This document shows positions 33,546 through 34,331 of a stretch of 64,000 nt of DNA, piece after piece. The position numbers and the translations under genes were made by a program. Location: the sequence record PV469800.1; one strand, 5' to 3'. Numbering within the stretch: position 1 is the first letter of the stretch; each line of letters starts with the position of its first letter. The notes under the pieces are model-generated. The model worked only from the letters and a program-made list of their open reading frames with translations. It searched no databases and was not told the DNA's origin. The stretch comes from Escherichia phage HMD-P10.

Positions 33546-34331
33546 ATGGGTATTGTAAAAATCATCAATGGGGATATCTTCTCCGCATTTGATAAAGGTA
33601 AGTTTGATATTATTGGTCACGGTTGCAACTGTATGAATTTAATGGGTGCAGGTATCGCTGACAAGATTTCTAAACTTTACCCAAAAGCATATGAGACTGA
33701 TACAGAAGTCTATCTGTATGCAGGTGGTATAGGTCACAAACCCTGTGAAAATTTACTAGGCAATTTCTCTGTAGCACGTTTAGAACAAGGCCGTATAGCT
33801 AACCTTTACACTCAGCTTAAGACTGGTAAAGATGCCCGATACAGTGCTTTAGAGTCATCTTTGAAACAACTTAACAGATACTGTGAAGTCAATCAGTTGA
33901 AGAAAGTTGGGTTACCTATGGTTGGTGCAGGTATCGGTGGACTTGACCCTCAAGCCGTCACCGTTATCATTAATCAGGTGATGAAGAGTGTAGATGTTTA
34001 TCTGTATGTCTACGAAGGAGAGATGTACCACAAGCTACGCTCAGGTTGGAAGAACTACTGTGAACCAGAATACTTTGCAGGTGTAGTAGTGTTCACTGAT
34101 GATGTAGTTACCCTCTTCAGACGAAGAGAAGGTAAGGTACATCAAAGTAACCCTCCGGTTGAAAAGATGTCTCTAAGTAACGCTCTAGTTACCCACCTGT
34201 CGAAGAGCAATCACAGAATTGCAGTAACATTTGGCAGTGATGCAGACACATATATCTATGCAAGAACTGCTGAGGATGTTGAGGAAATTTTCTCTTCACC
34301 GGAAGTTACCTTCTTAGACGCAAAGAACTAA
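33546..34331 (+). CDS. macro-domain (ADP-ribose binding/processing) protein
   Basis: N-terminal IINGDIFS...FDIIGHGCNCMNLMGAGIADKI follows macro-domain GDIT...NAAN..GGGV pattern. Confidence 0.5.
   Translation: MGIVKIINGDIFSAFDKGKFDIIGHGCNCMNLMGAGIADKISKLYPKAYETDTEVYLYAGGIGHKPCENLLGNFSVARLEQGRIANLYTQLKTGKDARYSALESSLKQLNRYCEVNQLKKVGLPMVGAGIGGLDPQAVTVIINQVMKSVDVYLYVYEGEMYHKLRSGWKNYCEPEYFAGVVVFTDDVVTLFRRREGKVHQSNPPVEKMSLSNALVTHLSKSNHRIAVTFGSDADTYIYARTAEDVEEIFSSPEVTFLDAKN

What the first reader, a model, noticed from the sequence alone, without database searches (positions are those of the whole stretch)
33546..34331. Macro-domain protein at the edge of the accessory region
The N-terminus follows the macro-domain pattern (GDIF...GHGCNCMNLMGAGIADKI). 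Macro domains bind or hydrolyse ADP-ribose and its derivatives. In a genome that also carries an NAD+-related pair, this protein could remove ADP-ribosyl modifications or process ADP-ribose-derived signals, a plausible counter-defence or host-takeover role.
Basis: partly seen in the sequence, partly recalled or inferred. Interest (0 to 1): 0.5.

Follow-up and report, generated by a model that had tools for sequence, protein, structure and literature searches.

The report
Phage macrodomain ADP-ribose eraser, two domains
This Felix O1-like phage gene really does encode a macrodomain enzyme, of the type that strips ADP-ribose off DNA and that lets phage T4 escape the bacterial DarTG2 defence; it also carries an extra tail domain of unknown fold found only in this phage group, so it is a fairly ordinary but usefully reclassified anti-defence candidate.

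Summary
ORF 33546-34331 (+, 261 aa) starts with a genuine macrodomain: Pfam Macro is above threshold, and an AlphaFold2 model (pLDDT 95) matches TARG1, DarG and Poa1p at TM 0.77-0.88. The window is a Felixounavirus, and the Bas63 ortholog is bas63_0095, annotated 'putative phosphatase'.

The domain is not MacroD or Af1521-like. It belongs to the ALC1-like (TARG1/DarG/SCO6735) class, in a large Gln-type subfamily with the motifs HGCNC, MGAGIA, NLYTQ and GAGIGG. Gln90 replaces the catalytic Lys of DarG and TARG1, as in SCO6735, where that Gln is essential and the enzyme removes ADP-ribose from DarT-modified thymidine. T4 Tk.4 shares the motifs (34% identity), and its knockout sensitises T4 to DarTG2.

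The most likely function is therefore an AdfM-type eraser of DNA ADP-ribosylation. This rests on homology only.

Two things are new:
- Residues about 158-261 form a confidently modelled, fast-evolving, mostly-beta domain with no sequence or fold match. It is restricted to Ounavirinae.
- This macro family recurrently sits inside or beside NARP1 (Adps/Namat) NAD+-reconstitution operons. The window's own NARP1 pair lies 7.8 kb upstream.

Verdict: a new member of a known kind, of modest interest.

The parts
33546..34331 (+). CDS, 261 aa including stop: two-domain macrodomain protein, ortholog of Bas63 bas63_0095 'putative phosphatase'
   Evidence: ORF listing. About 96% DNA identity to Felixounavirus genomes, where it is annotated phosphatase, macro domain protein or O-acetyl-ADP-ribose deacetylase. 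phrog_335, E=7e-111.
33546..34016 (+). Macrodomain (aa 1-157), ALC1-like (TARG1/DarG/SCO6735) class, Gln-type
   Evidence: Pfam Macro. NCBIfam and PADLOC DarG models match only their macro part. Profile against PDB. AF2 model plus Foldseek.
33618..33632 (+). HGCNC motif (aa 25-29). Asn28 is equivalent to DarG Asn22 and SCO6735 Asn27
   Evidence: Asn28 is invariant in 162/162 family representatives. Alignments. The active-site role of DarG N22 is from PMC13309987. Coordinates checked.
33642..33659 (+). MGAGIA (aa 33-38): first glycine-rich phosphate-binding loop
   Evidence: G36 and A38 are invariant, and M33 and G34 are at least 90% conserved. Coordinates checked.
33801..33815 (+). NLYTQ (aa 86-90). 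Gln90 occupies the position of catalytic Lys80 of DarG, Lys84 of TARG1 and the essential Gln85 of SCO6735
   Evidence: Alignments. N86 and Q90 are invariant in 162/162. SCO6735 Q85A is inactive (PMC9411070).
33924..33941 (+). GAGIGG (aa 127-132): second glycine-rich phosphate-binding loop. The TARG1 Asp125 position is Gly here
   Evidence: G127 is invariant and G129 and G132 are at least 90% conserved. TARG1 alignment.
34017..34328 (+). C-terminal domain (aa 158-261): linker helix, six beta strands and a short helix. Unknown fold, restricted to Ounavirinae, fast-evolving
33531..33538 (+). Shine-Dalgarno-like GGGAGAGA, 8-15 nt upstream of the ATG. The upstream ORF's TAA stop abuts the ATG (TAAATG), indicating translational coupling
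   Evidence: Read directly from the sequence.
34361..34412 (+). Intrinsic-terminator-like hairpin (17 bp stem) plus T-run, 30 nt after the stop codon. It ends the transcription unit
   Evidence: Consensus scan and sequence. This is a consensus match only.

Best explanation
The gene encodes a catalytically competent ADP-ribosyl glycohydrolase. It belongs to the Gln-type branch of the ALC1-like (TARG1/DarG/SCO6735) macrodomain class and is a homolog of T4 Tk.4 ('AdfM').

Proposed mechanism:
- During infection of hosts carrying a DarT2-type toxin, thymidines in single-stranded phage DNA become ADP-ribosylated, which blocks replication.
- The macrodomain binds the ADP-ribose through its two glycine-rich loops.
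- With Asn28 and Gln90 positioning the substrate and a water molecule, it cleaves the ribose-thymine bond. This restores the DNA and releases free ADP-ribose.
- The released ADP-ribose, together with the nicotinamide released by DarT, could then be rebuilt into NAD+ by the phage's own NARP1 enzymes (Adps and Namat, 22989-25716).
- The Ounavirinae-specific C-terminal domain probably adds a second function, such as binding the toxin or targeting the enzyme to DNA or the replisome.

Shown here: the fold, the subclass, the conserved active site, homology to Tk.4 and SCO6735, and the operon structure.

Inferred: the substrate (DNA thymidine-ADPr), the anti-DarTG2 role, the coupling to NARP1, and any role for the C-terminal domain.
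For: Fold and class:
- Pfam Macro above threshold.
- The closest models are DarG: NCBIfam NF048014, E=1.5e-12, and PADLOC DarG, E=5.5e-13, macro part only.
- Family profile against PDB: BT1257 4e-22, Mtb DarG 3e-20, SCO6735 2e-19, Poa1p 7e-19, Taq DarG 2e-18, TARG1 4e-18.
- AF2 pLDDT 95.4. Foldseek top hits are TARG1 (TM 0.86-0.88), Taq DarG (0.84) and BT1257 (0.82).

Active site:
- N28, G36, A38, N86, Q90 and G127 are invariant in 162/162 family representatives.
- Q90 aligns with SCO6735 Q85. SCO6735 removes ADP-ribose from DarT-modified thymidine, rescues E. coli from DarT, and is dead as Q85A (PMC9411070).

Phage precedent:
- T4 Tk.4 is 34% identical over the whole macro domain (BLASTP E=6e-24) and has the identical HGCNC, NLYTQ and PxIGAGIG motifs.
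- tk.4 was the single HIDEN-SEQ hit under DarTG2, and its clean knockout sensitises T4.
- A Lys-type phage macrodomain, PhiKZ AdfM, has the same role and removes DarT2-added ADP-ribose from DNA (PMC13309987).

Other support:
- The macro domain is basic, pI 8.3-9.2 across orthologs, which is compatible with nucleic-acid binding.
- The hosts are E. coli and Salmonella, and the DarTG2 experiments cited here were run in E. coli.
Against: No experiment exists on any Ounavirinae copy, and I found no paper pairing DarTG with Bas63.

The relation to Tk.4 is family-level homology at 34% identity, not orthology. The NJ tree of phage members is star-like, and the window's clade does not group specifically with T4.

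Macrodomains of this class are promiscuous. SCO6735 and TARG1 also act on proteins, and Poa1p is an ADPR-1''-phosphatase, so substrate cannot be read from sequence alone.

The recurrent placement of family members inside NARP1-like operons suggests that at least some of them serve ADP-ribose metabolism rather than DNA repair.

The Tk.4 evidence is a preprint and is genetic only.
Confidence: 0.5

Rival explanations
1. NARP1 accessory enzyme. The macrodomain acts on small ADP-ribose derivatives rather than on DNA. It could, for example, dephosphorylate ADPR-1''-phosphate (the Poa1p activity behind the 'phosphatase' annotation) or process other side-products or conjugates. That would keep free ADP-ribose available for Adps and Namat to rebuild NAD+ when the host depletes it.
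For: - In Vibrio phage BBMuffin the Gln-type macro gp178 (NVYGQ) lies directly between the Prs/Adps-like gp177 and the NAMPT/Namat-like gp179.
- IMG/VR locus L088 has the same sandwich arrangement. In L086/L087 the macro starts 36 nt after a Namat-like gene. In L080 both genes lie 4 kb away.
- 3 of 38 distinct non-Ounavirinae lineages have both genes within 10 kb, against about 0.27 expected on a crude independence model (P about 0.003).
- All Ounavirinae copies sit about 8 kb downstream of NARP1 on the same strand.
- NARP1 generates ADPR-PP and an ADPR cyclic phosphate in infected cells (preprint 10.1101/2024.02.11.579819).
- Poa1p is among the closest structures.
Against: - Most family members, including all T4-like ones, are not near NARP1 genes, and NARP1-adjacent members are polyphyletic.
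- In the window the macro gene is in a different transcription unit from NARP1, with terminator-like hairpins at 30206 and 31998 in between.
- The NARP1 study deleted only genes 79-80 and never mentions a macro gene.
- The Poa1p residues mutated in the deposited structures, S30 and F152, are Leu32 and Gly131 here. Poa1p has Ser where this family has its invariant Gln.
- The clustering may simply reflect anti-defence islands. It is also what the main explanation predicts if ADP-ribose released from DNA is recycled.
Confidence: 0.2
2. Eraser of ADP-ribosylation on protein or RNA. The enzyme reverses modification of phage or host proteins, or of mRNA or tRNA, installed by other bacterial ADP-ribosyltransferase toxins or by a phage-encoded transferase, rather than DarT2 marks on DNA.
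For: - TARG1 is the top structural match and is a protein Glu/Asp-ADPr hydrolase.
- SCO6735 also de-modifies protein substrates, and Q85A abolishes that activity too.
- Macro domains occur in 41% of myoviruses, and their substrates are largely unknown (PMC9503650).
Against: - No ADP-ribosyltransferase was identified in the parts of the window I scanned, although I did not scan every ORF.
- The only phage member with a phenotype, T4 Tk.4, maps to DarTG2, a DNA-modifying system.
- TARG1's Lys84/Asp125 dyad, used for protein de-modification, is absent.
Confidence: 0.15
3. Non-catalytic reader or sponge. The protein only binds ADP-ribose-containing molecules, for example sequestering ADPR-derived immune signals, with the C-terminal domain mediating oligomerisation.
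For: - The canonical catalytic Lys (or Lys/Asp dyad) of the nearest characterised enzymes is missing.
- Some macrodomains in this class, such as ALC1, are binders only (named established knowledge; Rack et al. classification as cited in PMC9411070).
Against: - Gln at this position is the signature of a proven active enzyme, SCO6735.
- It is absolutely conserved, together with Asn28, in 162/162 relatives, including Tk.4 with its anti-DarTG2 phenotype.
- Such strict conservation of a polar active-site pair is not needed for binding alone.
Confidence: 0.05

Closest known systems
T4 Tk.4 = AdfM (anti-DarT factor macrodomain; HIDEN-SEQ preprint 10.1101/2025.11.20.689424)
   Same: - A phage-encoded stand-alone macrodomain of the same Gln-type subfamily.
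- 34% identity over the whole macro domain, E=6e-24.
- Identical HGCNC, MGxGxA, NLYTQ and PxIGAGIG motifs.
   Different: - Tk.4 is a single domain of 155 aa. The window protein carries an extra C-terminal domain of about 104 aa.
- The two are not orthologs; the tree is star-like.
- The genomic contexts differ: the tk-vs region in T4, and downstream of the rII and spanin genes here.
- The function of the window protein is untested.
SCO6735 of Streptomyces coelicolor (PDB 5E3B)
   Same: - ALC1-like class macrodomain with Gln (Q85) in place of the catalytic Lys, aligned to Q90 here.
- Conserved Asn in HxCN and conserved PxIGCG loop.
- Biochemically removes ADP-ribose from DarT-modified thymidine.
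   Different: - A bacterial chromosomal protein at only about 23% identity.
- I could not assess whether its extra mobile loop is present here.
- It has no C-terminal domain.
DarG2 antitoxin of DarTG2 (Thermus aquaticus 5M31/5M3E, M. tuberculosis 5M3I)
   Same: - Same macro class and fold, TM 0.78-0.84.
- Two-domain logic: an N-terminal macro eraser plus a C-terminal accessory domain.
- DarG models are the best hits in NCBIfam and PADLOC.
   Different: - The catalytic Lys80 is replaced by Gln.
- The score is 47 bits against an equivalog cut-off of 250.
- The C-terminal domain shows no sequence or structural similarity to anything in the PDB.
- There is no adjacent darT gene.
PhiKZ gp104 = AdfM of chimalliviruses (Cell Rep 2026, PMC13309987)
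   Same: A phage macrodomain orphan antitoxin that removes DarT2-added ADP-ribose from DNA.
   Different: - It is Lys-type (N23/K78), close to DarG2, and imported into the phage nucleus.
- I did not align it directly to the window protein.
Human TARG1/OARD1 (4J5R/4J5S) and yeast Poa1p (6LFQ)
   Same: They are the best structural matches, at TM 0.86-0.88 and 0.77, and share the HxCxC...GxGIA motif architecture.
   Different: - The TARG1 Lys84/Asp125 dyad is absent.
- Poa1p has Ser at the Gln position, and its S30 and F152 are not conserved here.
- Both are eukaryotic housekeeping enzymes.

Membership tests
Macrodomain superfamily (Pfam PF01661) | Sequence match above the curated gathering score | tested here: met
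   29.6 bits against a cut-off of 22, E=7.5e-7, covering profile positions 2-117 of 118.
Macrodomain superfamily (Pfam PF01661) | Three-layer alpha/beta/alpha macro fold | tested here: met
   AF2 pLDDT 95.4. 239 PDB matches at E<=1e-3, and the listed top 50 are macrodomain structures apart from two designed-hydrolase entries. Target TM is up to 0.88.
Macrodomain superfamily (Pfam PF01661) | Two glycine-rich ADP-ribose phosphate-binding loops | tested here: met
   MGAGIA (33-38) and GAGIGG (127-132). G36, A38 and G127 are invariant in the family.
ALC1-like class (TARG1 / DarG / SCO6735 / Poa1p) | Closest sequence and structure relatives are members of this class rather than MacroD, macroH2A or PARG types | tested here: met
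   The profile search of PDB sequences returns 16 sequences. Apart from TTHA0132 (2dx6, weakest hit, unclassified here), they are TARG1, DarG, SCO6735, Poa1p and BT1257-type macrodomains. The Foldseek top 14 are the same set.
Gln-type subfamily (SCO6735, T4 Tk.4/AdfM) | Gln at the position of DarG Lys80 / TARG1 Lys84, with conserved Asn in the HxCN motif | tested here: met
   Q90 aligns to SCO6735 Q85 and to the Tk.4 NLYTQ motif. Q90 and N28 are invariant in 162/162.
Gln-type subfamily (SCO6735, T4 Tk.4/AdfM) | Hydrolysis of thymidine-linked ADP-ribose on ssDNA, or protection against DarTG2 | not testable with these tools
   This needs biochemistry or phage genetics. It has been shown only for SCO6735 and T4 Tk.4.
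DarG2 antitoxin (NCBIfam NF048014 equivalog) | Full-length match above the equivalog cut-off | tested here: not met
   47.4 bits against a cut-off of 250. Only model positions 4-154 of 338 are matched.
DarG2 antitoxin (NCBIfam NF048014 equivalog) | Catalytic lysine (Taq DarG K80) | tested here: not met
   The aligned residue is Gln90.
DarG2 antitoxin (NCBIfam NF048014 equivalog) | C-terminal DarT-binding domain | tested here: not met
DarG2 antitoxin (NCBIfam NF048014 equivalog) | Encoded next to a darT toxin gene | tested here: not met
   The neighbours are small phage ORFs with no Pfam hit. Bas63 and C600M2 annotate no toxin in the region.
TARG1/OARD1 | Lys84/Asp125 catalytic dyad | tested here: not met
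   K84 aligns to Q90 and D125 aligns to G131.
Poa1p-type ADPR-1''-phosphatase (source of the 'phosphatase' annotation) | Residues probed in the deposited Poa1p structures (H23, S30, F152) | tested here: inconclusive
   The H23 equivalent is present (H25). S30 aligns to L32 and F152 to G131, and Poa1p has Ser at the Gln90 position. Activity cannot be excluded from sequence.
   No MacroD or Af1521 entry appears among the profile-based PDB hits or the listed top 50 Foldseek hits. I did not check the MacroD catalytic motifs explicitly.

The most novel reading that the evidence does not exclude
The protein is a two-pronged orphan antitoxin wired into NAD+ recycling.

The fast-evolving, fold-orphan C-terminal domain would be a toxin- or replisome-binding module, a functional analogue of DarG's DarT-binding domain that arose independently. 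The macro domain would erase DNA ADP-ribosylation, and the ADP-ribose it releases would be fed directly to NARP1 (Adps and Namat). The phage would then convert the defence's own product back into NAD+, an 'erase-and-recycle' circuit.

The repeated insertion of this macro family inside NARP1 operons in unrelated phages would be the genomic trace of that coupling.
Probability: 0.15. Interest if true: 0.6.

Novelty: new member of a known kind. Interest (0 to 1): 0.33.

Why it matters
Felixounaviruses, including Felix O1 and the BASEL phage Bas63, are widely used for Salmonella and E. coli typing, biocontrol and therapy. Their macro gene is still annotated as a generic 'phosphatase'.

Reassigning it to the Gln-type AdfM/SCO6735 group gives a concrete and cheaply testable prediction: these phages resist DarTG2 because of this gene.

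Two further observations could extend the known biology if they hold up:
- An Ounavirinae-specific, rapidly diverging C-terminal domain with no known fold.
- The recurrent embedding of this macro family in NARP1 operons, which points to a possible link between erasing ADP-ribosylation and rebuilding NAD+.

Neither observation is surprising enough on present evidence to rank the finding highly.

Tried and rejected
C-terminal domain:
- Foldseek against BFVD returned only its own ortholog in phage SUSP2.
- A profile search of PDB sequences gave nothing below E=0.27.
- Pfam scans of all 15 tails gave only PH domain at E=0.06-0.13 in two members.
- A word-indexed search of 5.8 billion proteins with the tail alignment returned only a 54-aa fragment of the same family.
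- So there is no fold or family assignment. 'PH-like' is at most a hint.
- The afdb50 fold library was unavailable.
- The tail's pI ranges from 4.8 to 9.1 among orthologs, so I rejected the idea that it is a consistently acidic DNA mimic.

Literature:
- No paper links DarTG with Bas63, and the searches for Felix O1 or Felixounavirus together with macro domains listed nothing relevant.
- The Felixounavirus comparative-genomics paper does not mention the gene.
- LeRoux 2022 is not held in the library.
- The NARP3 paper is unrelated to macrodomains.

Other checks:
- Membership of DarG2 proper is rejected (Gln instead of Lys, no DarT-binding domain, no darT neighbour).
- I first took 58330-61429 for the NAD+ pair, but those ORFs are terminase and portal.
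- The intergenic region 34300-34850 has no significant Rfam match.
- The NJ tree was too star-like to place the window protein with either T4 Tk.4 or the NARP1-embedded members.
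Full report
WHAT IS THERE

The window is a Felix O1-like myovirus (Felixounavirus). The region 33000-35300 is 94-97% identical to about 180 E. coli and Salmonella phage genomes. The ORF named in the finding exists exactly as stated: 33546..34331, + strand, ATG start, 261 aa. Public records annotate its orthologs as 'phosphatase', 'putative phosphatase', 'macro domain protein' or 'O-acetyl-ADP-ribose deacetylase'. In the BASEL phage Bas63 (JohannRWettstein) it is bas63_0095. It matches phrog_335 at E=7e-111.

The ATG abuts the TAA stop of the upstream 78-aa ORF (TAAATG), and a GGGAGAG Shine-Dalgarno sequence lies 8-15 nt upstream. A 17-bp-stem hairpin with a T-run follows 30 nt after the stop codon. 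The gene is therefore the last cistron of a unit that starts after the terminator-like site at 31998-32015 and includes the spanin genes. Downstream come about 400 nt of repeat-containing spacer and then a series of small ORFs, each preceded by a promoter-like site. 'Edge of the accessory region' is a reasonable description.

IS IT A MACRODOMAIN?

Yes. Pfam Macro (PF01661) scores 29.6 bits against a gathering score of 22 (E=7.5e-7), covering almost the whole model. An exhaustive HMMER search with a family profile found 15,877 representative clusters at E<=1e-3 and 195 at E<=1e-30. Among the 162 closest sequences, Asn28, Gly36, Ala38, Asn86, Gln90 and Gly127 are invariant. These define the motifs HGCNC, MGAGIA, NLYTQ and GxPxIGxGIGG.

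An AlphaFold2 model built on 149 sequences is very confident (pLDDT 95.4, pTM 0.91). Foldseek against the PDB gives TARG1 (E=1.8e-10, target TM 0.86-0.88), Thermus aquaticus DarG (0.84), BT1257 (0.82), M. tuberculosis DarG (0.78) and Poa1p (0.77). Every hit covers only about 155-178 alignment columns, which is the N-terminal domain.

WHICH KIND OF MACRODOMAIN?

- The single-sequence PDB search puts TARG1 first and DarG next.
- NCBIfam's only hit is the DarG antitoxin equivalog (E=1.5e-12), and PADLOC's only hit is DarG (E=5.5e-13). In both cases only the macro part of the model is matched.
- The family profile against PDB sequences returns 16 sequences. Apart from the weakest hit (TTHA0132, 2dx6), they are BT1257/2afc (4e-22), Mtb DarG (3e-20), SCO6735 (2e-19), Poa1p (7e-19), Taq DarG (2e-18), TARG1 (4e-18) and the Thermosipho africanus DarTG entry 7omu (3e-11).

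This is the ALC1-like class.

The catalytic residues of the best-studied members are absent. TARG1 Lys84 and DarG Lys80 align with Gln90, and TARG1 Asp125 aligns with Gly131. This is not decay, because the Gln is invariant across the family. It is also the state found in SCO6735 (NMIGQ, Gln85). That enzyme efficiently removes ADP-ribose from DarT-modified thymidine in ssDNA, rescues E. coli from DarT, and is inactivated by Q85A. Its authors propose a water-mediated mechanism in which Gln positions the substrate (PMC9411070).

One caveat on the alignments: the SCO6735 and Mtb DarG sequences were copied from the HMMER alignments.

PHAGE PRECEDENT

Three papers frame the biology.
- T4 lacking adfA and adfN is still resistant to DarTG2, which predicted a further factor (PMC11825919).
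- A transposon screen (HIDEN-SEQ preprint) found tk.4 as the single T4 gene needed under DarTG2. A clean knockout is sensitised, and the authors named it AdfM.
- Independently, chimallivirus PhiKZ gp104, a Lys-type DarG2-like macrodomain (N23/K78), was named AdfM and shown to remove DarT2 marks from DNA (PMC13309987).

tblastn of the window's macro domain finds homologs in 2,849 of 50,697 phage records, including the T4 tk.4 locus. I fetched that locus. Tk.4 (155 aa) is 34% identical over the whole domain (E=6e-24) and carries HGCNC, MGSGVA, NLYTQ and PRIGAGIG. The window protein and Tk.4 are thus members of one Gln-type subfamily. An NJ tree of 61 members is star-like, however, so this is family-level homology and not orthology.

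THE SECOND DOMAIN

Residues about 158-261 form a linker helix, six beta strands and a short helix, with pLDDT of 86-96 in the full-length model. It was not recognised by any resource I tried:
- BFVD returns only the ortholog in phage SUSP2.
- The profile against PDB sequences and Pfam gives nothing significant, apart from PH domain at E=0.06-0.13 in two of 15 tails.
- A word-indexed search of 5.8 billion proteins found only a fragment of the same family.

tblastn finds the domain in 242 phage records, nearly all named as enterobacterial Felixounavirus-, Mooglevirus/Sf14-, Mordin- or Suspvirus-type phages. Divergent versions sharing the motifs W/YxNxSxPxxFDG and TFGxDxxVY occur in a handful of metagenomic clusters. 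Two of these, P0009 and P0021, lie in syntenic contexts (rIIA, rIIB, then a PNKP-like gene in the P0021 contigs, then the macro gene); the P0021 contigs are about 87 kb.

The domain evolves about twice as fast as the macro domain: 46-54% against 75-80% identity in the middle-distance orthologs, and 25% against 52% in the most distant one. Its charge is not consistently acidic (pI 4.8-9.1), which argues against a DNA-mimic role. The macro domain, by contrast, is basic (pI 8.3-9.2).

Other family members carry unrelated C-terminal extensions. A 'macro plus variable tail' arrangement therefore recurs, and it is formally reminiscent of DarG (macro plus DarT-binding domain). There is no detectable homology to DarG's C-terminus.

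THE NAD+ PAIR AND A RIVAL READING

ORFs 22989-23888 (Prs-like) and 23935-25716 (NAMPT-like) are 77% and 98% identical to Bas63 genes 79 and 80. Those genes are the founding example of NARP1: Adps phosphorylates ADP-ribose to ADPR-PP, and Namat joins it to nicotinamide to make NAD+. Their deletion sensitises Bas63 to SIR2-HerA (preprint 10.1101/2024.02.11.579819). They lie 7.8 kb upstream of the macro gene on the same strand, separated by rIIA, rIIB and two terminator-like sites.

In Vibrio phage BBMuffin a Gln-type macro (NVYGQ) sits directly between the Adps-like and Namat-like genes. To see whether this is an isolated case, I fetched 80 IMG/VR loci encoding the family and searched their flanks of up to 10 kb. 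Among 38 distinct (70% identity) non-Ounavirinae lineages, three have both genes nearby:
- L088 has the same sandwich arrangement as BBMuffin.
- In L086/L087 the macro starts 36 nt after the Namat-like gene.
- In L080 both genes lie 4 kb away.

About 0.27 such lineages would be expected if placement were independent, taking the published 4.3% NARP1 prevalence and a 20 kb window in a genome of about 120 kb (P about 0.003). This is a crude model with no phylogenetic correction. The NARP1-adjacent members are scattered across the tree.

There is thus a real but minority association. It could mean that some members process ADP-ribose metabolites for NARP1. That would fit the Poa1p-type ADPR-1''-phosphatase activity behind the 'phosphatase' label, and NARP1-infected cells do accumulate ADPR-PP and a cyclic-phosphate derivative. 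It could equally mean that ADP-ribose erased from DNA is recycled by NARP1, or simply that anti-defence genes cluster. The Poa1p-specific residues S30 and F152 are not conserved here.

CONCLUSION

The most likely function (about 0.5) is an AdfM-type eraser of DarT2-installed thymidine ADP-ribosylation on phage DNA. The alternatives are an ADP-ribose-metabolite role linked to NARP1 (about 0.2), erasure of protein or RNA ADP-ribosylation (about 0.15), and a non-catalytic binder (about 0.05); the remainder is unassigned. The rival readings are not all mutually exclusive with the main one.

It is not a DarG2, a TARG1 or a MacroD by their defining features. It is a further member of a very large, already annotated phage macro family whose first functional assignment has just appeared. 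What distinguishes it is an Ounavirinae-specific orphan C-terminal domain. Interest is modest. The two leads worth a bench test are the role of the C-terminal domain and the macro-NARP1 linkage.

Noticed in passing
window 22989-23888 and 23935-25716 (+): Prs-like and NAMPT-like ORFs that are 77% and 98% identical to Bas63 genes 79 and 80. Those genes are the experimentally characterised NARP1 pair (Adps and Namat), which rebuilds NAD+ from ADP-ribose and nicotinamide.
   Followed up: yes
L009 (Vibrio phage BBMuffin MT448616.1) 4129-7135; IMG/VR loci L088, L086/L087, L080: Gln-type macro genes lie inside or directly beside Adps/Namat-like gene pairs in unrelated phages. 3 of 38 distinct non-Ounavirinae lineages were sampled with both genes nearby, against about 0.27 expected on a crude model. 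This points to a possible functional link between this macro family and NARP1 that I did not find described in the papers read.
   Followed up: partly
window 34403-34600: The spacer after the macro gene's terminator holds four degenerate direct repeats of about 39-45 nt, each ending TCATTTT..TGTGCAG(G/A). There is no significant Rfam match. Bas63 annotates two small reverse-strand ORFs in the equivalent spacer, and other Felixounaviruses have an indel nearby, seen as two-piece alignments.
   Followed up: partly
window 52877-57900 (+): A cluster of 26 tRNA genes covering most amino acids, interrupted by a few small ORFs. It lies just upstream of the large terminase (58330-59946) and portal (59954-61429) genes.
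   Followed up: no
window 30816-31511 (+): A 231-aa ORF orthologous to Bas63_0087 'polynucleotide kinase'. The syntenic gene in a distant relative hits Pfam HAD_PNKP (L007), but the window copy gives no Pfam hit at E<=0.01. I did not look for an RNA ligase partner.
   Followed up: no
window 51296-52711 (+): A 471-aa protein with DUF7788 and DUF2828 domains, of unknown function, immediately upstream of the tRNA cluster.
   Followed up: no
window 13743-19994 (+): Both aerobic class I ribonucleotide reductase subunits (13743-15977 and 16227-17360) and an anaerobic NrdD-type reductase (17850-19994) are encoded in tandem.
   Followed up: no
proteins P0015, P0028, P0030, P0033-P0035, P0052: Other members of the same macro subfamily carry C-terminal extensions of 70-120 aa that do not match the Ounavirinae tail profile. 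'Macro plus variable tail' may therefore be a recurrent architecture.
   Followed up: partly
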